NCBI GenBank assembly: GCA_020444545.1
Contig: JAHLKT010000002.1
Coordinates: 152,870 to 216,869, forward strand
Source: Desulfarculaceae bacterium
GTDB lineage: Bacteria > Desulfobacterota > Desulfarculia > Desulfarculales > Desulfarculaceae
Length of the DNA: 64,000 nucleotides
Reading direction: 5' to 3'
The position numbers and the translations under genes were made by a program. The notes beneath the pieces were generated by a model. That model saw only the letters and a list, made by a program, of their open reading frames with translations, was not told where the DNA came from and searched no databases. Below are positions 40,627 through 61,926 of the stretch, in pieces (position 1 is the stretch's first letter; every line of letters starts with the position of its first letter).

Positions 40627-40640
40627 ATGCTCCTTGCTCC

Positions 40641-42852: not shown

Positions 42853-42951
42853 AATCTACAAAAAGGTCAGGCCGGGGCACCGCACGGGCGGTTTTAAGGC
42901 CAAACCGATCACATAGTGGAAGGGGATGCCTGGAGGGGGCAGCCGGGCGGC

Positions 42952-43506: not shown

Positions 43507-44736
43507 TCAGGCGAGGGCGCCCGCGCCGAGAAGCTGCACGTTGAGGATCTCGCCTTGGGACAGGCTTTCCCGGCCCTCGGGTATGGCCGCCACCGCATGG
43601 GCCTTGGCCAGGGCGCTCAGGCGGCTGCGCTTGGACAGGGGATGGAACAGGGGCAGGCCGTCCTCGCCGGGGGACAGGGAGCCTTGGAAAAAGTCGGTCC
43701 AGGCCGGGTTGCCGTCCAATATGTCCGCCGCTAGACGGGCGCTCACCCGGGGCAGGCCGGGACGGGCTCGTCCGGCCAGGGCGTGCAGGCCGGGCAGGGC
43801 GATCTGCAAAAAACCCATGAGATTGGAAGGCGGACCGCCGGGCAAGAGAAACACCGGCTTGCCGGCCAGCAGGCCGAAGCCCACCGCCTTGCCCGGGCCC
43901 ATGCGGATGCGGTGGAACACCTTGCGCCAGCCCAGCTCTTTCAGGGCCTGGGCCACCAGGTCGCGTTCGCCGCGCCAGGCCCCGCCGCTGGTGATCAGCG
44001 CGTCGCTGCCGGCCAGCAGGTCCTCCAGGGCTCGGCGCAGCTCCTCGGGCTGGTCGACCGCCATGCCCAGAGAGGGGGCCATGCCCTCGCGCGCGCAGAA
44101 CCCGGCCAGGGTGATGATGTTGGAGGCGTGCACCTGGCCCGGCCGTAGGGGCAGGCCGGGCATGACGATCTCGCTGCCCGTGCCCAGGATGCCCACCCGG
44201 GGCCGCGCGAACACCATGGCCGAGCCCAGGCCGCCCGCGGCCAGCAGCCCGGCGGCCACGGGGGTGATGACTCGGCCCGTGGCCAGGATCAGGTCGCCCC
44301 GGGCCACGTCGCCGCCTGTGGGCAGGATGTTCTTGGCCTGGGACGGGGCCAGCACCAGCAAATCGCTGCCTTCCAGGCGGGTGTATTCCTCGGAGACCAC
44401 CGCGTCCGCGCCGGGCGGGATGCGCGCGCCGGTGAGCACCCGCACCGCTTGGCCAGGCCCCACCGGGATTTCCTCGTGGTCCCCGGCGGCCATGATGCCC
44501 GCCAGCTCCAGGCGCACCGGCGCGGCCTCGCTGGCAGAGGCCACCTCGCTGCCGCGCAGAGCGTAGCCGTCCTTGCGCGAGGCCGCCGCGGCGGGGCTGT
44601 CCAGCAGGGCGCGCAGCTCGGCTCCGGCAACCCGGCCCACGCTCTCCAATAGCGGCGCGTCCTCCACGCCCAGGGGCTCCACGCCCTCAAGGGTCAGGCG
44701 CAGGGCCTCCTCGTATCCCAGAGACAAGCGGTTCAT
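43507..44736 (-). CDS. moeA: Molybdopterin molybdenum/tungsten-transferase MoeA (copy 1)
   Basis: 409-aa ORF with MoeA patterns: SRKDGYALR, VRVLTGARIPPGADAVV, ILGTGSEIV, LITSGGAW, GPGKAVGFG, LPGGPPS. Confidence 0.9.
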   Translation of the reverse strand: MNRLSLGYEEALRLTLEGVEPLGVEDAPLLESVGRVAGAELRALLDSPAAAASRKDGYALRGSEVASASEAAPVRLELAGIMAAGDHEEIPVGPGQAVRVLTGARIPPGADAVVSEEYTRLEGSDLLVLAPSQAKNILPTGGDVARGDLILATGRVITPVAAGLLAAGGLGSAMVFARPRVGILGTGSEIVMPGLPLRPGQVHASNIITLAGFCAREGMAPSLGMAVDQPEELRRALEDLLAGSDALITSGGAWRGERDLVAQALKELGWRKVFHRIRMGPGKAVGFGLLAGKPVFLLPGGPPSNLMGFLQIALPGLHALAGRARPGLPRVSARLAADILDGNPAWTDFFQGSLSPGEDGLPLFHPLSKRSRLSALAKAHAVAAIPEGRESLSQGEILNVQLLGAGALA

Positions 44737-44816
44737 GCTCTCCTAAAGCCCAATCAGGCCGACAGCGGCCTGTATTGAATTTATAACCTGGACGGTCCGG
44801 GGGGCAACGGAATACC

Positions 44817-45602
44817 ATGCAGCCTATGAAACACCCCCTGAAAACCCGGCCCATCCTGCGGGTGCGCGGCGACGCGGTAAGCCCGGACAGCATCACCTTT
44901 GCCGACGAGCGGCCGCTGAGTCTGGCGGTGCGCGGCCGGGCGCTCACCGTGCTCATGGCCACCCCGGGCCTGGAGTGCGAGTTGGCCGCGGGCTACGCCC
45001 TGACCATGGGCTGGGCCAAGCCCGGGGACACGCCGCCTCGGGTGGATTACCACGCCGGGCAGGCCCAGGTGGAGCTGGATTTGGCCGTGGACCCCGAGTC
45101 GCTGAGCCCTATCCGCGCCGCAGGGGGCGGCCTGCTGGGCCCCACCGAGGCCGAGCCCTTGGCGGAGGGCCCCGGCATGGAGCTGGGCCTGGCGCGAGGC
45201 CTCACCGAGGCCATGGGCCAAGGTCAGGTGCTCTACCCCCTGACCCGGGGTACCCACGCGGCCGCGCTGTTCGACGCGGCGGGCGGGCTGCTGGCCCTGG
45301 CCGAGGACGTGGGGCGTCACAACGGCCTGGACAAGGCAGTCGGGATGGCCTGGCTGGAGGGCAGCCTGAGCCGGGCGGTGGCCGTGGCCCTGTCCGGGCG
45401 GTGCAGCCTGGAGATGGTGCTCAAGACGGTGCGCGCGGGGGTGAGCATAATCGTGAGCGTGTCCTCGCCCACCGTGCCGGCGGTGGAGGCGGCCGAGCGG
45501 TTGGGCCTAACCCTGGCCAATTGCCACGGCCCGGAGAACCTGGTCATCTACACCCACCCCGGCCGCCTGCGCCAAAACGGCGAGCCCCTGCGCCTGGCCT
45601 GA
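44817..45602 (+). CDS. FdhD-family protein lacking the conserved Cys pair
   Basis: 261-aa ORF. The FdhD signature GRHNGLDKAVG and the C-terminal fold region are conserved. However, the loop that carries SCGxCG in copy 1 reads IRAAGGGLLGPTE. Confidence 0.8.
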   Translation: MQPMKHPLKTRPILRVRGDAVSPDSITFADERPLSLAVRGRALTVLMATPGLECELAAGYALTMGWAKPGDTPPRVDYHAGQAQVELDLAVDPESLSPIRAAGGGLLGPTEAEPLAEGPGMELGLARGLTEAMGQGQVLYPLTRGTHAAALFDAAGGLLALAEDVGRHNGLDKAVGMAWLEGSLSRAVAVALSGRCSLEMVLKTVRAGVSIIVSVSSPTVPAVEAAERLGLTLANCHGPENLVIYTHPGRLRQNGEPLRLA

Positions 45603-45605
45603 GTC

Positions 45606-46865
45606 TTATTGCCAACCCGATTCGGCGATCTCGTCGTGATAGATGAGCTGAATCTTGACCGTGGTGCCCGCGGCCAGGGGGCCGGAGTCGGGGGGAATGA
45701 TGATCAGGCAGTTGGCGTCGCGCATGGATTTGAACACCGATGACTTCTGGTCGCCGGCCAGGGCCACGTGCAGGCCGCCGTTGCCCAGGGAGAAACGCCC
45801 GCGCAGCAGGCGCAGGTTGTGGGTGGGCTTCTTGTCGATGGGCTCGTCCAGCACCGCGCTGACCACGGGCTTGAACAGCTTGCGCGCGCCCATGAGGGCC
45901 AGGAGGGCGGGGCGCACGAACTGGATGAAGCTGGTCATGGCCGAGACCGGGTTGCCCGGCAGGCTGAAGAAGAGCTTGTCGTCCATGGTGCCGAAGGAGC
46001 AGGGCTTGCCCGGCTTCACGCGCACCCGTCCAAAGCGCAGCTCCACGCCCAGGTCCGCGTAGGCGTCCTTCACGAAATCGTACTTGCCCATGGAGCCGCC
46101 GCCGGTGGAGAGGATCACGTCCGCGTCCAGGGCGCGGCCCAGGAGCTCGCGCACCTGGGGCAGGGAATCGCGGGCAATGCCCAGATGGTCCGGCTCGGCG
46201 TTGTACTTGCGGGCTTCGGCGCACAGGGCGTAGGCGTTCACGTCGCGGATCTGGCCGGGGGCGGGCTTTTCGCCCACCGCGGCTAACTCGTCGCCGGTGG
46301 AGATGATGGCCACGCGGGGCCGCTGGTACACCCGCACCGTGTCGTGGTTCAGGGCGGCCAGGATGCCCACATCGGCCGGGTTGAGCATGTCGCCCCGCAT
46401 GAGCACCGCCTCGCCGCTCTCGATATTCTCGCCCCGGCGGCGGTAGTTCTCGTAAGGGGCCACGGCGCGAAAGAGCTCCACCTCGCCGCCATGTTCTCGG
46501 CTGTCCTCGAACTGCACCACTGCGTCCGCGCCCGGGGGCAGGGGAGCGCCGGTCATGATGCGCACCGCCTTGCCGGGCGTCACCGTCAGGCCGTTCAGCG
46601 AGCCCCCGGCCTGCACCTCGCCCACGATCTTCAGGCGCGCGGGGCGCTGGGGTGAGGCCCCGGCGGTGTCGCTGGAGGCCACCGCGTAGCCGTCGCGGGC
46701 CGAGGAGTCGGTGGGCGGCAGCATGGCGTCGGCCACCACGTCCTCATGCAGCACCCGGCGCACCGCCTTAAAGATGGATATCTCCTCCGGCCCCAGGGGC
46801 GTCACCGCGTCCAGGATGATCCTCTGGGCCTCGGGCAGGGAGACGGTTTTCATCTCTTGGCTCAT
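45606..46865 (-). CDS. moeA: Molybdopterin molybdenum/tungsten-transferase MoeA (copy 2)
   Basis: 419-aa ORF with MoeA patterns: ARDGYAV, VRIMTGAPLPPGADAVV, IISTGDEL, ILSTGGGSMGKYD, VKPGKPCSFG, LPGNPVS. Confidence 0.9.
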   Translation of the reverse strand: MSQEMKTVSLPEAQRIILDAVTPLGPEEISIFKAVRRVLHEDVVADAMLPPTDSSARDGYAVASSDTAGASPQRPARLKIVGEVQAGGSLNGLTVTPGKAVRIMTGAPLPPGADAVVQFEDSREHGGEVELFRAVAPYENYRRRGENIESGEAVLMRGDMLNPADVGILAALNHDTVRVYQRPRVAIISTGDELAAVGEKPAPGQIRDVNAYALCAEARKYNAEPDHLGIARDSLPQVRELLGRALDADVILSTGGGSMGKYDFVKDAYADLGVELRFGRVRVKPGKPCSFGTMDDKLFFSLPGNPVSAMTSFIQFVRPALLALMGARKLFKPVVSAVLDEPIDKKPTHNLRLLRGRFSLGNGGLHVALAGDQKSSVFKSMRDANCLIIIPPDSGPLAAGTTVKIQLIYHDEIAESGWQ

Positions 46866-47813: not shown

Positions 47814-47847
47814 AGCTCCTCACCTCCTTTCCGGGTCTGGGCAAACA

Positions 47848-50800: not shown

Positions 50801-50973
50801 GACATATGCCCGCCAATGGCTGGGTTTTTCTCCACTAGGTATACTCGGTAGCCCGCCGTGGCCAGGTCCAGGGAGGCTTGGATACCGCTGATCCCGCCAC
50901 CCACGACCATCACGTCTCCGAATTCGCCGCCGGGCTGTTTAACAGCCTCTTGCGGCAACTGCTCTTCCGACAT
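47848..50973 (-). CDS. bamE: BamE-like HdrA-family flavo-iron-sulfur selenoprotein (Sec at 50758-50760)
   Basis: Track ORFs 50758..50973 and 47848..50682 are in the same frame and are joined by one UGA: ...[40 protein letters not shown]... This is the conserved HdrA Cys/Sec position. The FAD motif [16 protein letters not shown] and several ferredoxin-type Cys clusters are present. The joined protein is 1041 aa. Confidence 0.88.
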
Positions 50974-51098
50974 GGGCTCGTGTTCCCCTTTCCATATCCC
51001 CGGCGCTTCGCCCCGGGGCTTTATCGGCCGATTTGGCCGCTTATGCTCTTTCTGTCCGCCCGGGGCGGTTTCCCCCCCCCACCCCCGCGCGCGGCCCC

Positions 51099-52250: not shown

Positions 52251-52288
52251 TGTCCGTGCCAGTCCTTCCGCCGGGTGCTAAGGGCGCC

Positions 52289-52831
52289 CTAGGCTTTTTT
52301 CGATTGGGACATCCGGGCAACGGCGTCTTGCAGCTTGTCCAGGCCGAACTTGTCGGCCAAAGACATGAGCCCGGTCTCCATGTCCTCCAGGGGAGCCTCT
52401 TCCTCCTCGTCCACCTCTATCTCGCGCTCTTCGTAGGTGAGCACGTCGTTGAGGCACCACTTGACGCACTGAGGCTCGTCGGCGCCCTCGCACATATCGC
52501 ACTTGAGCGGCAGCCCCGAGTCAGGGTCCTTGAACAGGTCGCGGGAGGGACAGGTGGCCCGGCAGAAGGCGCACTCGTCGTATTCCTTGCCGTCGATGGT
52601 GTATTTCTCGCGGCCCATGCACTCGGCCGGGGTGTACTCCCCGGCGAACACCGGCAGCCAGATGTCCTTGATGCGGTCGGTAAGGATCTGGATGCGGCTC
52701 TTGGCCGGGTTGATGCTGCTGTATCTGGGCTCGGCGTGGTAGGCGGAGCAGATAATCTCGCAGCCGCGGCAACCGTTGCAGCGGTCGGCGTCGACCTTGA
52801 TCGTCTTGATGGTCTTTTTAATTTTCGCCAT
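52289..52831 (-). CDS. bamC: BamC-like poly-[4Fe-4S] ferredoxin subunit
   Basis: About 180 aa. Cys clusters CNGCRGCEIIC, CAFCRATCP and CDMCEG...CVKWC are typical of the small electron-transfer subunit partnered with AOR-family enzymes. The start is either ATG at 52831 or TTG at 52837, and the gene overlaps the bamB 3' end. Confidence 0.85.
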   Translation of the reverse strand: MAKIKKTIKTIKVDADRCNGCRGCEIICSAYHAEPRYSSINPAKSRIQILTDRIKDIWLPVFAGEYTPAECMGREKYTIDGKEYDECAFCRATCPSRDLFKDPDSGLPLKCDMCEGADEPQCVKWCLNDVLTYEEREIEVDEEEEAPLEDMETGLMSLADKFGLDKLQDAVARMSQSKKA

Positions 52832-54791
52832 CTTCAAGCAAGCCTCTCTTGATCAGTTCGTCGGCCACGTAGTCCAGGTCCAGCTCATGCAGCCGTTCCT
52901 TGGTGGGAACGCCGTTGTCGTTCCAGCCCTTGAACTTGTAGTAGGTGCTGAGCAGCTCTTCTTCCAGCTCGGGGAAGCGGCGCTTCCAGTGATCCTCGGG
53001 CGGGTACTCGTCCTTGCGGGACATGCCGCGCAGGTTATTGAAGGCCCGGTGCAGGTTGCGGCTGCGGTTGACGATCTTCTGCAGGCTCTTCTCGTCCAGC
53101 TCCAGGCCGGTGAGCGCGGTGATCAGCTTGGGGTAGTTGTGGATGTGGTAGGGAGGCTTCAGGCAGAACGAGCCCATGCCCGCGCAGATGCACAAGGCAT
53201 CGTCGATGTTGTGCAGCATCTCCATCCAGTCCACGATCTGGGAGGCGATCTCCGGGGTGGGGTAGTAGGGGATCGCCTTCTCGCCGCGGACCTCCCACTC
53301 CAAGAGCCACTCCTTCCAGTTATCGTCGGGCAGCTGAGGCCAGTCTTCCACGAAGCGCTCGCGCTGCTCCTTCTTGGGGAAGGCGGCCTGGGGCCAGTTG
53401 CCCTCGATCTGGGTGATGCTGATCTTCTCGTTGGTGGCGTACATCAGGAAATAGAGCGGGTCGAGCATGCCCAGCTTGATGGGCAGCTGCTCGTGCTTCT
53501 TGATGTTGTTGTGGGCCAGCTTCTCGGCCTCGGGGCCCAGGGCCTTGCCCGCCCAGTAGGTGCCGTTGGCCAGCAGGTCGCCCACCTTGCCCTTGCGGTG
53601 CACCATGTGGTCCAGCAGCCAGAAGAAGCGGCCCTCCTTGTCCTCGGGGCAACCCTCGAAGTCCTCGTCGGTGAGGATGCCCGCCTCCTTGAGCTCCACC
53701 GCGTAGGCCAGGATCTGAGGGGTGGAGAAGCCGTCTACCCCGTACTCGCTGGCCTTCTGGGCGATCTGGAAGCCGAAGTCCAGGTTGTCCACGTAGGCGG
53801 CCATGGCGTAGGTGAGCTTGGAGAAGCACTTCATCATGTAGCGGGGCACGTTGGGATAGTCGATGAGCGCGCCGCAGTGCTGGGGGCAGTTGTAGCAGGA
53901 GATGAGCCGGGCGATGGAGTCGGTCTGGGTCTTGGACCAGCTCTCGTCGATCTCGTCGGTCCAGAAGTCCTTGCGCCGCTCGCGGGCGTTGCCCCAGGCG
54001 AAGTTCTCGGTGTGCCACTTCTCGTCGGTGTGCACCATTTCCGCCGGGGAGCCGATGCCCGAGAGGATGGTCATCACGTCGGGGATGGGGTTGTTGTTGC
54101 GGTAGTTGATGTACTCGGTGATCTCGTCCATGATCTCCATGAACTTGGCGCCGTCGTGGATGTGCACGTCCTTGGTGCCCCGCACCGCCACGGCCTTGAT
54201 CTTCTTGTCGCCCATGACCGCGCCGCCGCCCAGGCGGCTGGAGCTGGAGCGCGACTGCTCGATGGAGGCCACGAAGACCTTGTTTTCGCCTGCCGGCCCG
54301 ATGGCCGCCACCTGGGCCCGGGGCTCGTCCAGCTCCTCGCGGATCAGGTCCTGGGTCTCCAGGGCGCCCTTGCCCACCAGGTGGGTGGCGTCGCGGAGCT
54401 CAACCTTGTCGTTGTTGATCCAGACGTAGACCCAGTCCGGCGATTTGTTGCTGAAGACCACCTTGTCGTAGCCCGCGTGCTTCAGCTCGGCCGACCAGAA
54501 GCCGCCCATCATGGGATAGGCCAGAAGCTCCGACTGGGGCGAAACGAAGCTGATCACGGTCCGGTTGGCGCTGAAGGCCGGGGTGGCGTTCAGCAGGCCG
54601 GAGCTGAAGATCAGCAGGTTTTCGGGGTCAAAAGGCTTGGTCTCCGGCGGCACCCGGTCCCAGTGAATCTTGACGCTGGTGCCCAGGCCGCCAAGGTGCG
54701 TCTCCAACACTTTGGGATCGGTCTCCACCCGCTCGATATTGCCGGTGGCCAGATCGATCTCCAGGTTATAACCAGTCTCTCCGTACCTCAT
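52818..54791 (-). CDS. bamB: BamB-like tungsten-pterin AOR-family enzyme (class II benzoyl-CoA reductase active-site subunit type)
   Basis: Start chosen at ATG 54789-54791, behind AAAGAGGT. The sequence begins MRYGETGYNLEIDLATGNIERVETDP...GGLG and includes SCYNCPQHCGA, NNIKKHEQLP, ITQIEGNWPQA, KPPYHIHNYPK and YYKFKGWNDNGVPT. It follows my recollection of Geobacter metallireducens BamB much more closely than generic aldehyde:ferredoxin oxidoreductases. Confidence 0.88.
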   Translation of the reverse strand: MRYGETGYNLEIDLATGNIERVETDPKVLETHLGGLGTSVKIHWDRVPPETKPFDPENLLIFSSGLLNATPAFSANRTVISFVSPQSELLAYPMMGGFWSAELKHAGYDKVVFSNKSPDWVYVWINNDKVELRDATHLVGKGALETQDLIREELDEPRAQVAAIGPAGENKVFVASIEQSRSSSSRLGGGAVMGDKKIKAVAVRGTKDVHIHDGAKFMEIMDEITEYINYRNNNPIPDVMTILSGIGSPAEMVHTDEKWHTENFAWGNARERRKDFWTDEIDESWSKTQTDSIARLISCYNCPQHCGALIDYPNVPRYMMKCFSKLTYAMAAYVDNLDFGFQIAQKASEYGVDGFSTPQILAYAVELKEAGILTDEDFEGCPEDKEGRFFWLLDHMVHRKGKVGDLLANGTYWAGKALGPEAEKLAHNNIKKHEQLPIKLGMLDPLYFLMYATNEKISITQIEGNWPQAAFPKKEQRERFVEDWPQLPDDNWKEWLLEWEVRGEKAIPYYPTPEIASQIVDWMEMLHNIDDALCICAGMGSFCLKPPYHIHNYPKLITALTGLELDEKSLQKIVNRSRNLHRAFNNLRGMSRKDEYPPEDHWKRRFPELEEELLSTYYKFKGWNDNGVPTKERLHELDLDYVADELIKRGLLEDGEN

Positions 54792-55283
54792 TCTTACCTC
54801 TTTCGAAAGCAAAGAAACGGCGGGGATGGCTATGGAGCGATCCTCAAGTCCCTGCTTTGCATGCAGTCTTTTTAGACAGCCTACCGCCCCACATCTTAAG
54901 GGGCGGGTGAATGGTAGTTATAATATGGCTACAATGTAACTGAGTGTCAACCATAAAAACCACGGCAAGGCTTTATGTTAAAAATTCGGCCAGATGAGCG
55001 AAATTAGGGACAAAATCGTAGTTGAGGTTCGAGAGGGCACCTGTAAACCCCCTGTGATTGGTGGGGGCATGGCCCGGCGAAATTTGACCAGCTAGGGCAT
55101 AGGCTTTAGTATGAGCCCTAGGGGAGGGCTCGGGCGCGCCGCCGTGGCTGCTACGAAAAATATCCATAAAAGACATTAATATTCGCCCCTTACCCCCCAT
55201 GGTCCCCGCCAGGCCCTGGGACGCGTCCGCCGGAGTAATGACATGCCCGATTTGCACACCGCCTGCCGGGAGCCCGTGACCCC

Positions 55284-58200
55284 ATGAGCCTGGAGCCCAA
55301 CCAGCGCCGCGCCCTTTGCGGCATCTGCCCGGCCGGGTGCTGGATAATCGCCACCTACGATGGGGACGGCCGCCTGGCCAAGGTGGAGCCCGACCCGGCC
55401 TCGCCCCTGGGCATCACCTGCCGCCTGGGCGACCACTCGCCCGAGATCCTGTATTCCCCCGAGCGCCTGAAGACTCCCCTGCGCCGCAAGGGCCCCAAGG
55501 GCACCTACGATTTCGAGCCCATTTCCTGGGACGAGGCCTTCACGGCGATTGCCGAGCGCCTGCAAGGCATCAAGGCCGAGCACGGTCCCGAGGCCACCTG
55601 CGTGTACACCGGGCGCGGCTCCTTCGAGCTGGCCATGTGCGACCTGTACCAGCCCAAGGGCGTGGCGGTCTCCTCGGCCTCCTCGCTTTTGTTCCCCTTC
55701 GGATCGCCCAACACCATGGGCGTGGGCGCCTTGTGCTATGTGTCCTACGCCATGATCGCGCCCCATGTGACCCTGGGGAGTATGCACATCACCATGTTCA
55801 GCGACCTGGAGAACGCGGAGTTGATCGTGGTGTGGGGGGCCAACCCGGCCACGGACAGCCCGCCCATGGACTATCGCCGCATCGCCCAAGCGGTGGAGCG
55901 CGGGGCGCGCCTTGTGGTCATCGACCCCCGCCGCACCCTCACCGCCAAAATGCCGGGCGCGCGCTGGGTGCCCATCCGGCCGGGCACCGACGGAGCCCTG
56001 GCGCTGGGCATGTGCGCGGTGCTCATTTCCGAGGAACTCTACGACGAGGAGCTGACCCGCGACTGGACCCACGGCTTCGATCAGTTCGCTGCTTACGCCC
56101 AGCACTTTAGGCCCGAGGTGGTGGAGAACATCACCGGGGTGCCCGCTGACACGGTGAAGGAGCTGGCTCGGGAGATCGCCGGGGCGGCCGGGGCCGCGCC
56201 GGTGATGTACACCGGCCTGGAGTATTCCGACTCCGGGGTGCAGGCCATCCGGGCCACCCTGGCCCTGTGGGCCCTGGCCGGCCAGCTCGACGTGCCCGGC
56301 GGGCGCTGCTTTGCCATGCGGGAGAACAACTATCCCATCAACCGGGAACACCTGGTGGCCAACCCGGCCCCGGAAAAGGCCCTGGGCCGCGAGAGCTTCC
56401 CGCTCTACACCCTGTACCGCGAGGAGTCCCACGCCAACTGCCTGCCCCGCGCGGTGTTGGAGGGCGAGCCCTATCCCATCAAGGCCCTGATCAGTTTGGG
56501 CGCGTCGCTGTGCACCTCCTGGCCGAGGGCCTCGGTGTGGAAGGACACCCTGGCCGCCCTGGATTTCCTGGTGTGCGTCGACATCTTCCACAACGCTGAC
56601 ACCGCCTACGCGGACCTGGTCTTGCCCGCGGCCACCTGGTACGAGATCGAGTCCTACATGACCTACGGCCCCACCTTCCGCTTGCGCGAGCAAGTGGTGC
56701 CCCCGGTGGGCGAGGCCAAAAACGCCTTTTTCATCTTCAGCGAGATCGCCAAGCGCCTGGGCTACGGCCATCTTTACCCCCAGAACGAGCAGGAGGTGCT
56801 GGAGCGTGCCCTGGAGGGCGGGCCCTTCAGTTTGGACCAGGTGCGCGCCGCCGGGGGGCAAGTGAGTCTGCCCGGGGCCATGATGCAGTACAAGAAGTGG
56901 CAAAAGGGCCTGCTGCGCCCAGACGGCAAGCCCGGCTTCGACACCCCCACCGGCAAGATCGAGCTGTTCTCCACCATCCTGGCCGAGCACGGCTATGCCG
57001 GGCTGCCCGAGTACACCGAGCCCTCGGAGAGCCCGGTGTCGCGCCCCGACCTGGCCGAGGACTACCCCCTGGTGTTCAACTCCGGGGCGCGGGTGAGCAC
57101 TGACTTCCGCTCCCAATTCCACCACATCCCCGGCTTGGTAAAACGCCGCCCCGAGCCCACCGTGACCCTCAACACCCACGACGCCGAGGCGCGGGGCATC
57201 GTCAACGGCGACTGGGTGCGCCTTTCCTCGCCGCGCGGCGCGGTGCGTTTGCGGGCGCATGTGACCGAGGACATCGTGCCCGGCGCGGTGGACGCCAACA
57301 TGGGCGGGGGAGGGCCGCTAGGCCCCCAGGCCTGGCAGGACTGCAACATCAACGACCTCACCGAGCTGAAGTACGACCCCATCAGCGGCTTCCCCATTTA
57401 CAAGGCGCTCTTGTGCGAGGTGGCCAAAGAGCAGGGCGCGGGCGAGGCCGTGGCGGTGGACTCCGGCGAAGGCGCGGCGGCCCAGGTGCGGCCTGCGCCG
57501 CGCGCTGCCCAGGCGGGGCCGCGCATCTACCTGGACCACAACGCCACCACGCCCCTGGACCCGGGGGTGGCTTCGGCCATGAGCGAATTTTTGGCGGCCG
57601 AGTTCGGCAACCCTTCGGCCATCTACCGCGAGGGGCGCGCGGCGGCCACGGCCCTGGCCGAGGCGCGGCGCAAGCTGGCCTCCCTGCTGGGGACCACCGC
57701 CCGCCGCCTGACTTTCACCTCCGGGGGCAGCGAGGCCAACAACCAGGTGATCAAGGGCGTGGCCCTAGACCCGGCCAACCGGGACCAGCGCTTCATCACC
57801 TCCAGCGTGGAGCACCCCTCGGTGCTGAGGGTCTTCTCGTGGCTGGCCGATCTGGGCTGGGACGTGGTGATTCTGCCCGTGGACCGCGAGGGTCTGGTGC
57901 GGCCGGATGACCTGGTCGAAGCCATGGAGAAGCCCACCGCCCTGGTGAGCATCATGCTGGCCAACAACGAGACCGGCGGCTTGCAGCCCATCGCGGAGCT
58001 GGCCGCCCTGGCCCATGGGGCCGGGGCCTTGTTCCACACGGACGCGGTGCAGGCGGTGGGCAAGATTCCGCTGAACGTGGGTGAGCTGGGCGTGGACTTC
58101 CTGAGCCTGTCCGGCCACAAGCTGCACGGGCCCAAGGGAGTGGGCGCGCTCTACGCGCGGCAGGGATTGGAGCTGGCCCCCCTGGTGCATGGCGGCGGCC

Positions 58201-58679
58201 AGGAGGGCGGCCGGAGGGCGGGCACCGAGAACACCGCATCCGTCGTGGGCCTGGGCGCGGCGGCCGAGCTGGCCGCGCGCAGCCTGGGCAAAATGGGCGG
58301 CCAGGTGGCCGCGCTGCGCGACCGGCTGTGGTCGGGCATCCGGGAGCTGGTGCCGGACGCGCGGCTCAATGGCCCGCGAGAGGGACGTTTGCCCAACACC
58401 CTGAGCGTGTCCCTGCCCGGCATCCGGGGCGAGTCCTTGGTGCTGGCCCTGGATCAGAAGGGCGTGGCCTTGTCTTCGGGCTCGGCCTGCCGGGCGGGCA
58501 GCCCGGAGCCCTCGCACGCGCTGTTGGCCATGGGCCTGAGCGACGAGGAGGCGCACTGCGCCTTGCGTTTTTCCCTGGGCCGCGAGAACACGGCCGATGA
58601 GATCGAGCGAACCTTGCAACTAATGCGGCAGGTGATCGCCGAGAGCGAGAACCTGGTGCGCTTCGTGCCCTGCCGGTAA
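55284..58679 (+). CDS. Molybdopterin-oxidoreductase :: cysteine-desulfurase fusion (metallopterin-dependent ergothioneine synthase-like)
   Basis: 1131-aa ORF. Residues 1 to about 715 form a bis-MGD-type oxidoreductase: N-terminal cluster CGICPAGC...C, Molybdopterin and Molydop_binding regions (VTLNTHDAEARGIVNGDWVRLSSPRGAV). An Ala/Gly/Pro linker follows. Residues from about 745 to the end form a class-V aminotransferase / NifS-IscS domain: IYLDHNATTP, TSGGSEANN, PLP lysine SGHKLHGPKG, catalytic Cys SSGSAC. Confidence 0.85.
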   Translation: MSLEPNQRRALCGICPAGCWIIATYDGDGRLAKVEPDPASPLGITCRLGDHSPEILYSPERLKTPLRRKGPKGTYDFEPISWDEAFTAIAERLQGIKAEHGPEATCVYTGRGSFELAMCDLYQPKGVAVSSASSLLFPFGSPNTMGVGALCYVSYAMIAPHVTLGSMHITMFSDLENAELIVVWGANPATDSPPMDYRRIAQAVERGARLVVIDPRRTLTAKMPGARWVPIRPGTDGALALGMCAVLISEELYDEELTRDWTHGFDQFAAYAQHFRPEVVENITGVPADTVKELAREIAGAAGAAPVMYTGLEYSDSGVQAIRATLALWALAGQLDVPGGRCFAMRENNYPINREHLVANPAPEKALGRESFPLYTLYREESHANCLPRAVLEGEPYPIKALISLGASLCTSWPRASVWKDTLAALDFLVCVDIFHNADTAYADLVLPAATWYEIESYMTYGPTFRLREQVVPPVGEAKNAFFIFSEIAKRLGYGHLYPQNEQEVLERALEGGPFSLDQVRAAGGQVSLPGAMMQYKKWQKGLLRPDGKPGFDTPTGKIELFSTILAEHGYAGLPEYTEPSESPVSRPDLAEDYPLVFNSGARVSTDFRSQFHHIPGLVKRRPEPTVTLNTHDAEARGIVNGDWVRLSSPRGAVRLRAHVTEDIVPGAVDANMGGGGPLGPQAWQDCNINDLTELKYDPISGFPIYKALLCEVAKEQGAGEAVAVDSGEGAAAQVRPAPRAAQAGPRIYLDHNATTPLDPGVASAMSEFLAAEFGNPSAIYREGRAAATALAEARRKLASLLGTTARRLTFTSGGSEANNQVIKGVALDPANRDQRFITSSVEHPSVLRVFSWLADLGWDVVILPVDREGLVRPDDLVEAMEKPTALVSIMLANNETGGLQPIAELAALAHGAGALFHTDAVQAVGKIPLNVGELGVDFLSLSGHKLHGPKGVGALYARQGLELAPLVHGGGQEGGRRAGTENTASVVGLGAAAELAARSLGKMGGQVAALRDRLWSGIRELVPDARLNGPREGRLPNTLSVSLPGIRGESLVLALDQKGVALSSGSACRAGSPEPSHALLAMGLSDEEAHCALRFSLGRENTADEIERTLQLMRQVIAESENLVRFVPCR

Positions 58680-58699
58680 GGCAGCGGGGAGCGGCGGAT

Positions 58700-59707
58700 A
58701 TGCGCCTGAAAGCCTGCATCAAGGCCGAACAAGAGCGGCTGGAGATTCACGACTATTTGGACCTGGACCACCGCGAGGAGATGCGGCGCCTGGTGGGGGA
58801 GGGGCTGAGCGCGGCCGACAAGTGGCTGCACTGTAAATACCTCTACGACCAGCGCGGTTCCGAGCTCTTCGACCAAATCTGCCGCACCCCGGAGTATTAC
58901 CCCACCCGCACCGAGATGGCCCTCTTGGAGCGCCACGCCGGGGAGATCATGGATTTCTTCGCCTGGCGCGGGGGCGACCTGGTGGAGATGGGCTCGGGCT
59001 CCAACCAGAAGATACGCCTGCTCCTGGACGGCCACGCGCCGCGAGCCGGAGGGCATCTGCGCTACGTGCCCTTTGACATCAGCCAGAGCGCCCTGGAGGA
59101 GGCGGCCCGCGAGCTCCTGGAGCTATATCCCGGCCTGGAGGTCATGGGCATCGTGGGCGACTACACCCGCCATTTGGCCGCGTTGCCGCCGGGCCGCAAG
59201 CTGGTGCTGTTTTTGGGCAGCACCCTGGGCAACTTCAACGAGGCGGACGGCCTGGCCCTGCTCAGGGGCGTGGCCGCGGCCATGGGCCCGGAGGACCGCT
59301 TTCTCCTGGGCCTGGACATGGTCAAGCCGGTGGAGGTGCTGGAGGCGGCTTACAACGACGCGGCCGGGGTGACCAGCCGCTTCATCAAGAATATCCTGGC
59401 CCACCTCAACCGCGAGCTGGGCGCGGACTTCCCTCTGGAGCACTTCGAGCACCACGCTTTTTTCAACCCCCAACGCGAATGCATGGAGATGCACCTCCGG
59501 GCGCGGCGAGAGCTGAGCTGCCGGGTGGGCGACCTGGGCATGGAAGTGGGCTTCGAGCCCGGCGAGACGATCCACGTGGAGATCGCCCGCAAGTTCGCCC
59601 CCGAGAGCGCCCGCGCCATGCTGGAGCAGGCCGGGTTCCGCCTCACCCGCTGGTTCAGCGACGAGCGGGGCTGGTTCTCCCTGGTGGAGCTGGCCTTGGC
59701 GGGGTAG
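58700..59707 (+). CDS. egtD: EgtD-type L-histidine N-alpha-methyltransferase
   Basis: 335-aa ORF. KYLYDQRGSELFDQICRTPEYYPTRTE, VEMGSGSNQKIRLLL, YVPFDISQSAL, FLGSTLGNFN and AYNDAAGVTSRF match the EgtD / Methyltransf_33 family pattern. Confidence 0.88.
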   Translation: MRLKACIKAEQERLEIHDYLDLDHREEMRRLVGEGLSAADKWLHCKYLYDQRGSELFDQICRTPEYYPTRTEMALLERHAGEIMDFFAWRGGDLVEMGSGSNQKIRLLLDGHAPRAGGHLRYVPFDISQSALEEAARELLELYPGLEVMGIVGDYTRHLAALPPGRKLVLFLGSTLGNFNEADGLALLRGVAAAMGPEDRFLLGLDMVKPVEVLEAAYNDAAGVTSRFIKNILAHLNRELGADFPLEHFEHHAFFNPQRECMEMHLRARRELSCRVGDLGMEVGFEPGETIHVEIARKFAPESARAMLEQAGFRLTRWFSDERGWFSLVELALAG

Positions 59708-59794: not shown

Positions 59795-59850
59795 AAAAGA
59801 AGGACCAGCTTGCGGCTGGTCCTTTTGTCTTTTGTGTGGCTGGGGCTACA
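59795..59850. repeat. Repeat R1: terminator hairpin plus a truncated tRNA-3'-end-like stub
   Basis: AAAAGAAGGACCAGCTTGCGGCTGGTCCTTTTGTCTTTTGTGTGGCTGGGGCTACA aligns with R2 and R3. Only about 15 nt of the tRNA-like part remain. Confidence 0.6.
59802..59834 (+). terminator. Rho-independent terminator after egtD (part of repeat R1)
   Basis: GGACCAGC-TTGCG-GCTGGTCC (59802-59822) followed by TTTTGTCTTTTG. Confidence 0.65.
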
Positions 59851-60109
59851 TGATTGCATAATACTGGCTTTGAAGTGAAAGGCAGATTGAGTTGCATAAT
59901 AGGTAATTAATTTTTAAAGGCGCTCAATCGTGTGGATTTAGTGGGCAATGGTAGCAGTTCAGAGCCTTTATACTAATTTATTATTAGCAGGATGGATTTA
60001 TTTGGTTCACAACGAATAATCCATTATTTGTTGCGGAATTAGGGATTGAGTTTTTATGGAACCTCGTATACTTTGAAGTGAATTTATCAACCATAATAGG
60101 GGATGATAA

Positions 60110-61300
60110 TTGACCATCGACGAATTACGTTTGGCAGCGGAAACGTACCTAGCCCCCCTGTTGTCTGCCCAGGTCCTTCCTGCCCTCGAACCTTGCCAAC
60201 CATATTGTAGCCGTGTTGCTGCACTAGACCCTAGCAGAATTGGTATCAAAGCAAGCGATGGTGATACAGAAAGGATTGTGATTAACCGGACTCCAGGGTT
60301 TCCTCCAGAAGAACTCCAAATAGCAAAGGATTTTACAGAAGAGTTATTTAATATTTATGGGGCTACGGCGCAGGGTTATCGGCAAGAGTTGTTATCATTT
60401 CTTCCTGCGAGAGCAATTGCTCGGCATCTGGGGGGAATGGAGGCAACCAAGATCGTTTTGCGTCAATTTGAAAAATGGGCTGCGAGGACATATGAAGGAG
60501 GGGCCATCTCGTCTTTAGTGGGTATCGATCCAGGATGTACTGAACGTGATGTTTTACTGGCAGAACTTTTTGAACACGATTTTTCGGCGGTGTTGAGCAA
60601 TGGGTTCGATACACTCCTGTTGTCTTCGCCTGGGGGAAGTGTGGGAGGTGCCAGACAATTATCCGTGAGTGAAGACAATTTGCGATTTGCGCCTTATAGA
60701 CTTAGCCCTGTTGCAGGGTGGTCCGAAGGCAATAAGGTCGCTTTCGTACTGAATAGGCTCGGTGAACAATTGGTTTTTAAGGGAAAGAAACTAATATTTG
60801 CAAAAAGGCGTGGAGAATGGCGCTATTATTCCCACGAAATGTATATCAGACAAATGCAGCCGCCTCAAAAGAGGGAACTACGTGAGGCTGTGTACGAAAG
60901 TTGTATCGATACTTCCTTCGCACGAACAGGTGGATGCATAATCATTGTTAGGTCCGGTTCCGTTGATGATGCAAATGAGTTGATATCTAGTTCGGATCGT
61001 CTAGATGGAACAAATCAATCTATTAAAACAAAGACAATTAAAACGATGACGAATAAAAAATTCCAAAAATTAGATCGACGATTGCGACAGGAGCTTCTCG
61101 CATTAGATGGTGCAACAATATTGACCCATGATGGAGATGTCCTCGCGGTTGGGGCAATAATTAGCGTTCCTTCTGGTAGCGACGGTGGAGGCCGTAGAGC
61201 GGCCGCCAAAAAGGGAAGCACGTTAGGGCTGGGCATTAAAGTGTCTGAAGATGGTGAGATAACAGCATTTAAGAACGAGGAACAGGTCTTTACAGCCTAG
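60110..61300 (+). CDS. Sensor-domain + diadenylate-cyclase-fold (DisA_N/DAC-like) protein
   Basis: 396-aa ORF with a TTG start behind AGGGGA, inside a visibly AT-rich islet. The C-terminal ~130 aa carry the ordered DAC motifs GGCIIIV, LDGATIL, GGGRRAAA (in place of GTRHRAA) and KVSEDGEITAF (compare VSEETGxIS). The N-terminal ~240 aa were not recognised. Confidence 0.65.
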   Translation: MTIDELRLAAETYLAPLLSAQVLPALEPCQPYCSRVAALDPSRIGIKASDGDTERIVINRTPGFPPEELQIAKDFTEELFNIYGATAQGYRQELLSFLPARAIARHLGGMEATKIVLRQFEKWAARTYEGGAISSLVGIDPGCTERDVLLAELFEHDFSAVLSNGFDTLLLSSPGGSVGGARQLSVSEDNLRFAPYRLSPVAGWSEGNKVAFVLNRLGEQLVFKGKKLIFAKRRGEWRYYSHEMYIRQMQPPQKRELREAVYESCIDTSFARTGGCIIIVRSGSVDDANELISSSDRLDGTNQSIKTKTIKTMTNKKFQKLDRRLRQELLALDGATILTHDGDVLAVGAIISVPSGSDGGGRRAAAKKGSTLGLGIKVSEDGEITAFKNEEQVFTA

Positions 61301-61333
61301 AAGATCAAATGTCTTTTAATATTGGTTCTTAAA

Positions 61334-61413
61334 GTAGAAGGACCAACTTGCGGCTGGTCCATTTATCTTCATGCCTGGCGGGACGACCCAGTTCCGAGCC
61401 GCCGCCCATGGCG
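61334..61413. repeat. Repeat R2: degenerate terminator hairpin plus a decayed tRNA 3'-end fragment
   Basis: GTAGAAGGACCAACTTGCGGCTGGTCCATTTATCTTCATGCCTGGCGGGACGACCCAGTTCCGAGCCGCCGCCCATGGCG aligns with R3, with several substitutions and indels. Confidence 0.6.
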
Positions 61414-61433
61414 TGGCGACGGCCCAGATCGAA

Positions 61434-61601
61434 TCAGTAACTGTTGATCAGGTCGGCCTTGGCCTGAAAAACATTGCTGACCGAATCGCCGAACAGGAAA
61501 GAGGCGAAGGCGATCCCTCCGGCCAGGAACGACAGGATAAGGGCGTATTCCAGCGCGCTGACGCCGGTGTCGTCTAAGGCAAGTTGGGCTAGGCGGGGCA
61601 T
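61434..61601 (-). CDS. Flp/Fap-family type IVb pilin (orphan)
   Basis: The ATG at 61599-61601 follows GGAGG. The product is MPRLAQLALDDTGVSALEYALILSFLAGGIAFASFLFGDSVSNVFQAKADLINSY. The G/xxxEY processing motif and hydrophobic helix are typical of Flp prepilins. Confidence 0.6.
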   Translation of the reverse strand: MPRLAQLALDDTGVSALEYALILSFLAGGIAFASFLFGDSVSNVFQAKADLINSY

Positions 61602-61698
61602 GGGGCAGGCCTCCAACCAAAAATTGCTATGTTAGCTAGAAATTTTATCACGGGCCGCTTCAAGAAGGAAATCGCTTCTTTGCCCTCCCGAACCGAGA

Positions 61699-61786
61699 CA
61701 AAAAAGGACCAGCCTTGCGGCTGGTACTTTTATCTTTTGCTTGGCGGGGACGACCGGGCTCGAACCGGCGGCCTGAATGCATGGCG
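61699..61786. repeat. Repeat R3: terminator hairpin plus a well-preserved tRNA 3' fragment (T-arm, acceptor 3' strand, CCA; minus strand)
   Basis: The reverse complement of 61742-61786 is CGCCATGCATTCAGGCCGCCGGTTCGAGCCCGGTCGTCCCCGCCA. This gives a T-stem GCCGG/CCGGT, T-loop TTCGAGC, acceptor 3' strand and GCCA end. No matching 5' acceptor strand (GGGGACG) or anticodon arm follows, so it is a fragment and not a gene. Confidence 0.7.
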
Positions 61787-61926
61787 TATTTAGTCACCCG
61801 CATGCCGTCAAAAAGGCATGGGGTTTGTTTTCAACAAGCCATTTGAGATAACATGGCGAGTCATAGGGCATTAATGGTCTACGGCCACCCAGGGATTCTG
61901 CTGCCCTTAATATCTACCAGGCTTGC

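What the first reader, a model, noticed from the sequence alone, without database searches (positions are those of the whole stretch)
55284..59707. Molybdopterin oxidoreductase fused to a NifS-type cysteine desulfurase, followed by an EgtD methyltransferase: an anaerobic metallopterin-dependent ergothioneine pathway
Seen in sequence:
- A single 1131-aa ORF joins a complete bis-MGD-type oxidoreductase to a complete PLP cysteine desulfurase through an Ala/Gly/Pro linker (about 57430-57520).
- The oxidoreductase has an N-terminal CGICPAGC Fe-S motif, pterin-binding regions and a C-terminal beta-barrel domain.
- The desulfurase has IYLDHNATTP, SGHKLHGPKG and SSGSAC.
- The next gene, 20 nt downstream, is an unmistakable EgtD-family histidine N-methyltransferase.

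Established knowledge (from recollection): a metallopterin-dependent ergothioneine synthase (MES) was characterised from Caldithrix abyssi. Its acetylene-hydratase-like W/Mo-pterin module and C-terminal cysteine desulfurase together transfer sulfur from cysteine onto trimethylhistidine. Homologues are restricted to anaerobes.

Inference:
- This locus is a two-gene EgtD+MES ergothioneine pathway. Automated annotation would probably call it a generic molybdopterin oxidoreductase plus aminotransferase.
- It sits back-to-back with bamB and next to moeA/fdhD-like/moeA. One neighbourhood may therefore supply W/Mo-pterin to both enzymes.
Basis: partly seen in the sequence, partly recalled or inferred. 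Interest (0 to 1): 0.75.

Follow-up and report, generated by a model that had tools for sequence, protein, structure and literature searches.

The report
Anaerobic ergothioneine operon (MES plus EgtD)
This is a two-gene operon for making the antioxidant ergothioneine without oxygen, using a molybdenum/tungsten enzyme fused to a cysteine desulfurase; it is a clear but ordinary new copy of an enzyme family described in 2022.

Summary
Window 55284-58679 (+) is one 1131-aa ORF joining a bis-MGD-type metallopterin module to a NifS/IscS-type PLP cysteine desulfurase. An EgtD gene follows 20 nt downstream (58700-59707).

- The fusion is 64% identical over its full length to the characterised Caldithrix abyssi MES (UniProt A0A7V4WV16).
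- It keeps all nine residues the authors name: four Fe-S Cys, metal-ligand Cys, PLP Lys and three C-module Cys.
- It nests inside the clade holding all four experimentally active MES enzymes.
- It is next to EgtD in 31 of 38 related genomic loci.
- EgtD passes NCBI's equivalog cutoff and keeps 10 of 11 histidine-site residues (Ser284 is Ala).
- The fusion is not an artefact: more than 200 homologues share the architecture.

It is not new in kind. The 2022 paper's Table S1 already lists the 81%-identical homologue of Desulfocarbo indianensis, from the same bacterial family.

The neighbourhood idea is only weakly supported. Divergent bamB is a true benzoyl-CoA reductase, but bam and moeA/fdhD linkage occurs only in closely related Desulfarculaceae.

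One minor addition: an invariant, MES-specific Cys (window Cys119) that the main text of the paper does not mention.

Activity was not tested. Interest is low.

The parts
55084..55112 (+). Candidate sigma-70-like promoter for the MES-egtD operon (TTGACC, 17-nt spacer, TAGTAT)
   Evidence: The consensus scan found 9 of 12 matches. The -35 hexamer is also present in the closest relative L001, but the site is not conserved in the more distant Desulfarculaceae loci. Weak evidence.
55284..58679 (+). MES gene: metallopterin-dependent ergothioneine synthase homologue, 1131 aa, single ORF
   Evidence: It is 64% identical, full length, to CaMES A0A7V4WV16.
55284..57428 (+). N-terminal bis-MGD (Mo/W) module, residues 1 to ~715, acetylene-hydratase-like
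   Evidence: Pfam finds PF00384 and PF01568. The best PDB sequence hit is 2e7z at E 6.2e-71. The best fold hit is 2e7z with TM 0.81 normalised to the target. It is 69% identical to the CaMES N-module.
55317..55421 (+). [4Fe-4S] ligands Cys12, Cys15, Cys19 (CGICPAGC) and Cys46. Pro16 replaces the catalytic Asp13 of acetylene hydratase.
   Evidence: They align with CaMES Cys14/17/21/48. The acetylene hydratase alignment shows C-D there against C-P in MES.
55605..55685 (+). MES-signature segment YTGRGSFELAMCDLYQPKGVAVSSASS (residues 108-134), including the invariant Cys119-Asp120
   Evidence: Cys119 (CaMES Cys121) is invariant in 214 fused homologues. It is replaced or deleted in the unfused relatives. 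The segment lies partly in an insertion relative to acetylene hydratase.
55734..55736 (+). Cys151, predicted Mo/W ligand (equivalent to CaMES Cys153 and acetylene hydratase Cys141)
   Evidence: It is invariant in 214 of 214 homologues.
57429..57521 (+). Ala/Gly/Pro-rich interdomain linker, residues ~716-746
   Evidence: It is 14% identical to CaMES. Model confidence (pLDDT) is below 50 at residues 734-743.
57522..58676 (+). C-terminal PLP cysteine desulfurase module (NifS/IscS type), residues 747-1131. Key residues: Lys946 (58119-58121), Cys1069 (58488-58490), Cys1092 (58557-58559) and penultimate Cys1130 (58671-58673).
   Evidence: Pfam finds PF00266 at E 2.2e-76. PDB hits 5zsp, 5wt2 and 1p3w score about E 1e-90. 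Fold TM is 0.9-0.96. The residues map to CaMES K952, C1074, C1097 and C1135. The Cys1069 loop and the tail 1122-1131 have low model confidence, which fits mobility.
58680..58699 (+). 20-nt intergenic spacer with a Shine-Dalgarno-like GGGGAG (58686-58691), 8 nt before the egtD ATG
   Evidence: Read directly from the sequence.
58700..59707 (+). egtD: L-histidine N-alpha-methyltransferase, 335 aa
   Evidence: PF10017 matches at E 7.5e-108. TIGR03438 scores 346.4 bits, above the 290.9 cutoff. PDB EgtD 4uy5/4pim matches at E ~5e-75. Ten of 11 histidine-site residues are conserved, with Ser284 replaced by Ala.
59798..59826 (+). Terminator-like hairpin (13 pairs) followed by a T-run, 90 nt after the egtD stop
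   Evidence: Found by the scan and read in the sequence. The G+C content drops sharply just after it.
52818..54812 (-). Context: bamB (tungsten class II benzoyl-CoA reductase catalytic subunit), divergent from MES
   Evidence: PDB 4z3w matches at E 6.7e-297. Pfam finds AFOR_N and AFOR_C.
43507..46865 (.). Context: moeA (-), fdhD (+), moeA (-), downstream of bamCDEF
   Evidence: Pfam finds MoeA_N/MoCF_biosynth and FdhD-NarQ. NCBIfam agrees, although FdhD scores 134.7 bits, just below the 140.9 cutoff.

Best explanation
This is a two-gene operon for oxygen-independent ergothioneine biosynthesis in a Desulfarculaceae bacterium.

Proposed pathway:
1. EgtD trimethylates the alpha-amino group of L-histidine with SAM to give trimethylhistidine (TMH, hercynine).
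2. In MES, the C-terminal PLP domain (Schiff-base Lys946) desulfurates L-cysteine to alanine and loads a persulfide on the mobile-loop Cys1069.
3. The sulfur passes within the same polypeptide, via the penultimate Cys1130 on a flexible tail, to the N-terminal bis-MGD Mo or W centre. That centre is ligated by Cys151 and has a nearby [4Fe-4S] cluster on Cys12/15/19/46. The MES-specific Cys119 may also take part.
4. C2 of the TMH imidazole attacks the resulting metal(VI)-sulfido, releasing ergothioneine and metal(IV).
5. The next persulfide re-sulfurises the metal.

Shown here: the gene architecture, the orthology, the residue conservation and the operon layout.
Inferred by homology to CaMES, which was characterised in vivo in E. 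coli: the activity, the cofactor and the sulfur path.
My own speculation: the role of Cys119.
For: Architecture and domains.

Identity to characterised enzymes:
- 64% identity and 79% positives over 1133 aligned columns to P0369, which is UniRef100_A0A7V4WV16, 'Metallopterin-dependent ergothioneine synthase', Caldithrix abyssi.
- At least 54-57% to the other three active MES enzymes, even using their noisy PDF-read sequences.

Key residues: all nine named in PMC9516567 are conserved. They are invariant or nearly so in 214 fused homologues.

Family boundary:
- A neighbour-joining tree puts the window protein inside the fused clade, which holds CaMES, EaMES, AbMES and hvMES. Unfused relatives fall outside.
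- In 1.84 billion representative proteins the fused family collapses to one 50%-identity cluster (67% identity, 1126 bits). Unfused 735-aa proteins follow at 49-52% identity. The two sampled have no EgtD or desulfurase neighbour.

Structure-level matches: acetylene hydratase is the best sequence and fold match for the N-module, and NifS/IscS for the C-module.

EgtD linkage:
- EgtD is adjacent in 31 of 38 fused loci spanning several phyla. Five of the seven exceptions are cut by contig ends.
- EgtD is the only widely conserved neighbour.
- EgtD passes the equivalog cutoff and keeps Tyr39, Phe47, Tyr56, Gly161, Thr163, Asn166, Tyr206, Thr213, Met252 and Glu282 (residue list from PMC8593015).

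No sign of decay: only 15 deviations, mostly conservative, at columns that are at least 90% conserved.

Operon signals: 20-nt spacer, RBS-like site and a terminator-like hairpin.
Against: - No activity, metabolite or cofactor data exist for this protein or organism. Everything functional is by homology.
- CaMES itself was never purified full-length. Its mechanism is a proposal.
- EgtD carries Ser284Ala at a carboxylate-binding residue. The position is S, C or A among MES-linked EgtDs, so this is probably tolerated.
- Whether the metal is W or Mo is undetermined. CaMES worked with either.
- The rest of the genome was not available, so the absence of EgtB/EanB-type routes was not checked.
Confidence: 0.9

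Rival explanations
1. The fusion is a generic bis-MGD oxidoreductase or hydratase, for example an acetylene-hydratase-like or polysulfide/thiosulfate-reductase-like enzyme. On this view the attached desulfurase serves only cofactor or Fe-S maturation, and the EgtD adjacency is coincidental.
For: Acetylene hydratase and PhsA/Psr are the best solved relatives of the N-module. NCBIfam gives sub-threshold hits to PhsA and Fdh-alpha. Desulfurases do sulfurise Mo cofactors in other systems.
Against: - Identity to acetylene hydratase is only about 25%, against 69% for the N-module with CaMES.
- The acetylene hydratase catalytic Asp13 is Pro16 here.
- No NCBIfam model passes its cutoff.
- EgtD adjacency is conserved in 31 of 38 loci across phyla.
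- The paper's K952A and heterodimer experiments indicate that the desulfurase supplies sulfur in each turnover.
Confidence: 0.03
2. The pathway makes a related product rather than ergothioneine. One option is selenoneine, with the NifS-like module acting as a selenocysteine lyase. Another is a thio-derivative of a different betaine, because EgtD carries Ser284Ala.
For: The C-module also matches selenocysteine lyases (3gzc, 3a9x) at E ~1e-63. EgtD position 284 is Ala. From my own knowledge, NifS-type enzymes commonly accept selenocysteine.
Against: - The best C-module matches are cysteine desulfurases at E ~1e-90.
- The CaMES C-module converts cysteine to alanine in vitro.
- From my recollection of Vit et al. 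2015, the EgtD specificity residues are Glu282, Met252 and Thr213. All three are retained.
- TIGR03438 passes its equivalog cutoff.
- Position 284 varies (S, C or A) among loci that are otherwise orthologous.
Confidence: 0.05
3. The apparent fusion is an assembly or frameshift artefact that joins two separate genes.
For: The source is a metagenome-assembled genome, and the linker is poorly conserved.
Against: - More than 200 full-length homologues of 1090-1200 aa from independent assemblies share the same architecture. They include the cultured Desulfocarbo indianensis.
- All of the top 120 N-module hits carry the desulfurase domain.
- The ORF is uninterrupted, and both modules align end to end with CaMES with only 6 gaps.
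Confidence: 0.01

Closest known systems
Metallopterin-dependent ergothioneine synthase (MES) of Caldithrix abyssi, UniProt A0A7V4WV16 (Beliaeva & Seebeck, JACS Au 2022, PMC9516567)
   Same: - Same two-module architecture and nearly the same length (1131 vs 1136 aa).
- 64% identity overall.
- All nine named residues are conserved.
- Same C-terminal ...RF(V/I)PCR tail.
- Same Pro in the CGICPAGC motif.
- EgtD is co-encoded.
   Different: - The linker sequence is unrelated (14% identity).
- The host is a Desulfarculaceae bacterium rather than a Calditrichota bacterium.
- The flanking genes differ (bam cluster).
- No experimental data exist for this copy.
MES homologue of Desulfocarbo indianensis, UniProt A0A0K9I9K1, listed in Table S1 of PMC9516567
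   Same: I match this Table S1 entry to locus L003 by organism name. L003 is 81% identical over the full length. egtD lies immediately downstream, and bamBCDE lies divergently upstream. The bacterial family is the same.
   Different: In D. indianensis the moeA/fdhD/moeA block lies directly downstream of egtD. In the window it lies beyond bamF. Its EgtD has Ser rather than Ala at position 284.
Tungsten acetylene hydratase, Pelobacter (Syntrophotalea) acetylenicus, PDB 2e7z
   Same: It is the best solved sequence and fold relative of the N-module: E 6.2e-71 and TM 0.81. It also has an N-terminal [4Fe-4S] motif and a Cys ligand to the metal.
   Different: - Identity is only about 25%.
- The catalytic Asp13 is Pro16 here.
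- MES has an inserted, invariant segment with Cys119-Asp120 that acetylene hydratase lacks.
- Acetylene hydratase has no desulfurase fusion, and it forms a C-O bond rather than a C-S bond.
NifS/IscS cysteine desulfurases (PDB 5zsp, 5wt2, 1p3w)
   Same: About 40-42% identity and TM 0.9-0.96. The PLP Lys and the persulfide-loop Cys (SSGSAC) are conserved.
   Different: The window module is fused to a metallopterin enzyme. It carries an extra essential Cys in the penultimate position. It scores below the NifS equivalog cutoff (463.5 vs 530.75 bits).
EgtD of Mycolicibacterium smegmatis / M. tuberculosis (PDB 4pim, 4uy5, 7scf)
   Same: E ~5e-75 and same length. Ten of 11 histidine-site residues are conserved, including Asn166, Glu282, Thr213 and Met252.
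   Different: Ser284 is Ala. In the window EgtD partners with MES, whereas in mycobacteria it works with the O2-dependent EgtB/EgtC/EgtE route.

Membership tests
MES (metallopterin-dependent ergothioneine synthase) | A single polypeptide with an N-terminal bis-MGD-type module and a C-terminal class V PLP cysteine desulfurase | tested here: met
   Pfam finds PF00384, PF01568 and PF00266 in one 1131-aa ORF. The fold matches are 2e7z and NFS1/IscS.
MES (metallopterin-dependent ergothioneine synthase) | Four N-terminal Cys for a [4Fe-4S] cluster (CaMES Cys14, 17, 21, 48) | tested here: met
   Window Cys12, 15, 19 and 46 align with them.
MES (metallopterin-dependent ergothioneine synthase) | Metal-ligand Cys153 (essential in CaMES) | tested here: met
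   Window Cys151 sits in GVGALCYVS. It is invariant in 214 of 214 homologues and aligns with the acetylene hydratase ligand Cys.
MES (metallopterin-dependent ergothioneine synthase) | PLP Schiff-base Lys952 (essential) | tested here: met
   Window Lys946 sits in SGHKLHGPKG. It is invariant in 214 of 214 homologues.
MES (metallopterin-dependent ergothioneine synthase) | Persulfide Cys1074 and C-terminal Cys1135 (both essential), plus the conserved Cys1097 | tested here: met
   Window Cys1069, Cys1130 and Cys1092 align with them. The frequencies among homologues are 214/214, 214/214 and 209/214.
MES (metallopterin-dependent ergothioneine synthase) | Falls within the clade of experimentally active MES enzymes, separate from unfused relatives | tested here: met
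   The neighbour-joining tree of N-modules shows this. Identity is 64% to CaMES, against at most 52% to the nearest unfused proteins. This is a distance tree only, with no bootstrap.
MES (metallopterin-dependent ergothioneine synthase) | Co-encoded with a histidine-specific methyltransferase (EgtD) | tested here: met
   egtD lies 20 nt downstream. The adjacency holds in 31 of 38 related loci.
MES (metallopterin-dependent ergothioneine synthase) | The host is an anaerobe | tested here: met
   The evidence is indirect. The source record is a Desulfarculaceae MAG. The window encodes a tungsten class II benzoyl-CoA reductase BamB with HdrA/HdrD/MvhD-like partners. From my own knowledge, these are typical of strict anaerobes.
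MES (metallopterin-dependent ergothioneine synthase) | Converts trimethylhistidine plus cysteine-derived sulfur to ergothioneine | not testable with these tools
   This needs expression and LC-MS.
MES (metallopterin-dependent ergothioneine synthase) | Binds a bis-MGD cofactor with Mo or W | not testable with these tools
   Only domain and fold similarity are available. The metal identity is unknown.
EgtD (L-histidine N-alpha-methyltransferase, TIGR03438) | Scores above the curated equivalog cutoff | tested here: met
   346.4 bits against a cutoff of 290.9.
EgtD (L-histidine N-alpha-methyltransferase, TIGR03438) | Histidine-binding residues Tyr39, Phe47, Tyr56, Gly161, Thr163, Asn166, Tyr206, Thr213, Met252, Glu282 and Ser284 | tested here: met
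   Ten of 11 are identical, and Ser284 is Ala. Position 284 is S, C or A among 31 MES-linked EgtDs. Most of the residue list comes from PMC8593015. Gly161 and Met252 are from my recollection.
Acetylene hydratase (EC 4.2.1.112) | Catalytic Asp13 next to an Fe-S cysteine | tested here: not met
   The aligned residue is Pro16. Identity is about 25%. The protein is related to acetylene hydratase but is not a member.
NifS (TIGR03402) / IscS (TIGR02006) housekeeping desulfurases | Scores above the equivalog cutoff as a stand-alone desulfurase | tested here: not met
   463.5 bits against a 530.75 cutoff for NifS, and 343.2 against 643.2 for IscS. The domain is also fused rather than stand-alone.
BamB (class II benzoyl-CoA reductase), neighbouring gene only | Close full-length similarity to Geobacter metallireducens BamB | tested here: met
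   PDB 4z3w matches at E 6.7e-297 and 990 bits, over residues 8-661 of the window protein and 1-652 of the chain.

The most novel reading that the evidence does not exclude
In Desulfarculaceae the MES-egtD operon may be functionally coupled to the tungsten-dependent class II benzoyl-CoA reductase cluster and to the moeA/fdhD/moeA cofactor-insertion genes.

The evidence for linkage is as follows.
- In five related genomes MES-egtD is transcribed divergently from bamB.
- In D. indianensis the moeA/fdhD/moeA block has a different position but stays linked, directly after egtD.

Two readings follow. The cofactor supply could be shared or co-regulated. Alternatively, ergothioneine could serve the low-potential W enzyme, for example as a protectant or sulfur/redox buffer.

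Separately, the MES-specific invariant Cys119-Asp120 could be the last persulfide relay station and the catalytic base of the family.
Probability: 0.1. Interest if true: 0.55.

Novelty: new member of a known kind. Interest (0 to 1): 0.2.

Why it matters
It adds a confidently assigned MES/EgtD pair in a Desulfarculaceae MAG, where NCBI labels the enzyme only as an aminotransferase class V-fold protein. This supports the view that O2-independent ergothioneine synthesis is widespread among anaerobes that degrade aromatic compounds. I inferred sulfate reduction from the taxon only and did not test it.

The practical value is limited to three things:
- Better annotation of this and similar genes.
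- A cultured close relative, Desulfocarbo indianensis SCBM, in which the pathway could be tested.
- A sequence-derived hint for the still unsolved MES mechanism: the invariant, MES-specific Cys119-Asp120. No MES structure was among the listed top PDB matches (copy to April 2026).

It does not open a new question.

Tried and rejected
- **PDF-read MES sequences from the paper's supplement.** They are noisy, only about 94% identical to the real CaMES, so I retrieved the genuine protein. I used the supplement copies of the other three validated enzymes for rough placement only.
- **Exact-sequence contig look-up of the window protein.** It found nothing.
- **Rfam search of the bamB-MES intergenic region.** There was no hit at E up to 1, so no Moco or other riboswitch.
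- **Moco or tungstate genes as conserved MES neighbours.** None were found outside Desulfarculaceae. None lie at 32.8-43.4 kb of the window.
- **Unfused 735-aa relatives P0220 and P0221 as possible split MES systems.** Rejected. They have no EgtD or desulfurase nearby, and the residue equivalent to window Cys119 (CaMES Cys121) is replaced in them.
- **The AlphaFold model.** It gave fold matches and flexibility hints only.
- **The 396-aa ORF in the low-GC island.** It has no Pfam or NCBIfam match.
- **My first EgtD residue mapping.** It was off by one because a residue was lost when I rebuilt the reference sequence. I corrected it.
- **Antisense ORF 55176..57260 (-), 694 aa.** I dismissed it as a GC-rich shadow ORF, given the strong homology on the + strand.

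Full report
**Observation**

The window holds an uninterrupted 1131-aa ORF at 55284-58679 (+) and a 335-aa ORF at 58700-59707 (+). Pfam places three domains on the large protein: Molybdopterin (61-491), Molydop_binding (603-708) and Aminotran_5 (748-1109). It places Methyltransf_33 on the second protein at E 7.5e-108.

NCBIfam's egtD equivalog model is passed, at 346.4 bits against a 290.9 cutoff. No NCBIfam model passes its cutoff for the fusion.

The two genes are separated by 20 nt, with a GGGGAG 8 nt before the second ATG. A 13-bp hairpin with a T-run follows egtD at 59798-59826. The layout is that of a two-gene operon.

**What is known**

Beliaeva & Seebeck (JACS Au 2022, PMC9516567) described the metallopterin-dependent ergothioneine synthase (MES). 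Its parts are as follows:
- An acetylene-hydratase-like bis-MGD module with four N-terminal Cys for a [4Fe-4S] cluster (Cys14/17/21/48).
- A metal-ligand Cys153.
- A fused cysteine desulfurase with PLP Lys952, persulfide Cys1074, conserved Cys1097 and an essential penultimate Cys1135.

Four homologues produced ergothioneine in E. coli. Sulfur transfer is intramolecular.

**Membership**

I retrieved the genuine CaMES. P0121 and P0369 belong to one 90%-identity cluster, and P0369 is UniRef100_A0A7V4WV16, named 'Metallopterin-dependent ergothioneine synthase'.
- The window protein is 64% identical and 79% similar to it over 1133 columns, with 6 gaps.
- By part, identity is 69% in the N-module, 59% in the C-module and 14% in the linker.
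- All nine named residues align: window Cys12, 15, 19, 46, 151, Lys946, Cys1069, 1092 and 1130. They are invariant or nearly so in 214 fused homologues.
- The window protein deviates from columns that are at least 90% conserved at only 15 positions, mostly conservatively.
- Acetylene hydratase 2e7z is the best solved relative by sequence (E 6.2e-71). It is also the best by fold, with TM 0.81 normalised to the target, using an AlphaFold model of mean pLDDT 81.8.
- The acetylene hydratase catalytic Asp13 is Pro16 here, as in CaMES.
- The C-module matches NifS/IscS at about E 1e-90 and TM 0.9-0.96.

**Family boundary**

A search of 1.84 billion representative proteins with the N-module gave a single fused representative (67% identity, 1126 bits). 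Unfused 735-aa proteins followed at 49-52% identity, and then a large group at 33-38%.

In a neighbour-joining tree all fused proteins form one clade, including the four validated enzymes. The window protein nests inside it, and the unfused proteins lie outside. The two closest unfused proteins have no EgtD or desulfurase neighbour.

**Not an artefact**

More than 200 proteins of 1090-1200 aa from independent assemblies share the architecture.

**Context in other genomes**

Of 38 fused loci from species-representative genomes, 31 carry EgtD next to MES, downstream in 27 and upstream in 4. Five of the seven exceptions end at a contig edge. The phylum labels below come from the record titles of these mostly metagenome-assembled genomes. 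The loci come from:
- Thermodesulfobacteriota
- Nitrospirota
- Acidobacteriota
- Actinomycetota
- Aminicenantes
- Brocadiaceae

EgtD is the only broadly conserved neighbour. Other neighbours recur only sporadically:
- a fused OpuAC-permease betaine-type transporter
- DUF427
- a pyridine-nucleotide-disulfide oxidoreductase
- MFS transporters

**EgtD**

Ten of 11 histidine-site residues match M. smegmatis EgtD, and Ser284 is Ala. That position is S, C or A among MES-linked EgtDs.

**Neighbourhood claim**

The divergent gene is a true BamB (PDB 4z3w, E 6.7e-297). Behind it lie four further genes:
- a weak ferredoxin-like gene, in the position expected for BamC
- an HdrD-like gene (BamD)
- an HdrA-like gene (BamE)
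- an MvhD-like gene (BamF)

The moeA, fdhD, moeA genes lie beyond them at 43507-46865, which is 8-12 kb from MES.

The bamB-MES arrangement recurs only in the five loci with at least 79% MES identity, all Desulfarculaceae-like. No Moco genes flank MES elsewhere. In Desulfocarbo indianensis the moeA/fdhD/moeA block sits directly after egtD. So linkage persists within the family despite rearrangement, but this may simply be inherited synteny. The shared cofactor-supply idea remains speculation.

**Novelty**

The paper's Table S1 already lists the Desulfocarbo indianensis MES homologue. I match it by organism name to locus L003, which is 81% identical to the window protein. NCBI labels the window protein (MCB2226108.1) only as 'aminotransferase class V-fold PLP-dependent enzyme'. 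This is therefore a correctly recognised, under-annotated new member of a known family.

The only small additions are:
- The invariant, MES-specific Cys119-Asp120 signature, which is absent from unfused relatives. A search of the paper's main text for Cys121 or C121 found nothing.
- Low model confidence for the Cys1069 loop and the C-terminal tail, which fits a mobile sulfur relay.

No fused MES structure appeared among the 50 listed top matches of the fold search against a PDB copy to April 2026.

**Verdict**

The biochemical function is inferred by strong orthology (confidence about 0.9) and was not tested. Interest is low.

Noticed in passing
window 54913-54950 (bamB-MES intergenic region): This is the only block that is invariant across five Desulfarculaceae loci in an otherwise unconserved 471-bp intergenic region: CAGTTATAATATGGCTACAATGTAACTnnGTGTCAA. 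On the minus strand it reads as a sigma-70-like promoter for bamB (TTGACA, 17-nt spacer, CATATT). It overlaps an inverted repeat, AGTTAtA-N12-TgTAACT, that looks like an operator.
   Followed up: partly
window 55638-55643 (MES Cys119-Asp120; CaMES Cys121-Asp122): Cys119 is invariant in 214 fused MES homologues. In unfused N-module relatives it is replaced by R, N, W, Q, M or S, or deleted. It lies in a MES-specific segment that is partly an insertion relative to acetylene hydratase. The main text of the 2022 paper does not mention it. It is a candidate relay Cys with a catalytic base beside it.
   Followed up: partly
window 59830-61900: A low-GC island (about 48% against about 65% elsewhere) begins right after the egtD terminator. 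It holds a 396-aa ORF (60110-61300, TTG start) with no Pfam or NCBIfam match. This stretch has no counterpart downstream of egtD in the close relatives L001 and L019. It may be a recent insertion.
   Followed up: partly
window 29983-30173 (+): A cobalamin riboswitch aptamer (RF00174, 108.8 bits, E 2.5e-26) lies upstream of the ORFs at 30274-32728.
   Followed up: no
window 46974-54812 (-): The class II benzoyl-CoA reductase cluster bamBCDEF is present: BamB (AFOR family), a small ferredoxin-like protein, an HdrD-like CCG protein, a 944-aa HdrA-like protein and an MvhD/FlpD-plus-ferredoxin protein. I did not check for selenocysteine codons or for bamGHI.
   Followed up: partly
L003 10446-14390 (Desulfocarbo indianensis): The moeA/fdhD/moeA block sits immediately downstream of egtD here, with one moeA in the opposite orientation. 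In the window the block lies beyond bamF. Linkage of the three blocks is kept despite the rearrangement.
   Followed up: partly
L014, L023, L028, L030 (e.g. L023 10011-11528): In four non-Desulfarculaceae loci the MES-egtD pair is followed by a fused OpuAC substrate-binding and permease protein. From my recollection, this is the same architecture as the ergothioneine transporter EgtU. Five loci carry a pyridine-nucleotide-disulfide oxidoreductase, and seven carry a DUF427 protein.
   Followed up: no
L066 and L067 (proteins P0220 and P0221): These are stand-alone 735-aa metallopterin proteins, 49-52% identical to the MES N-module. They have the Fe-S and metal-ligand Cys but lack the residue equivalent to window Cys119 (CaMES Cys121). 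They are not next to EgtD or a desulfurase. One sits beside a BcrA/HgdC-type activase-like gene, by my reading of its translated sequence, and the other beside an acyl-CoA dehydrogenase. They form an uncharacterised sister group.
   Followed up: partly
window 32795-43407 (-): This stretch holds an Opp/Dpp-type peptide ABC transporter, two M20 peptidases, an IclR regulator, an isocitrate/isopropylmalate dehydrogenase and a YdcZ-type exporter. None is related to the finding.
   Followed up: no
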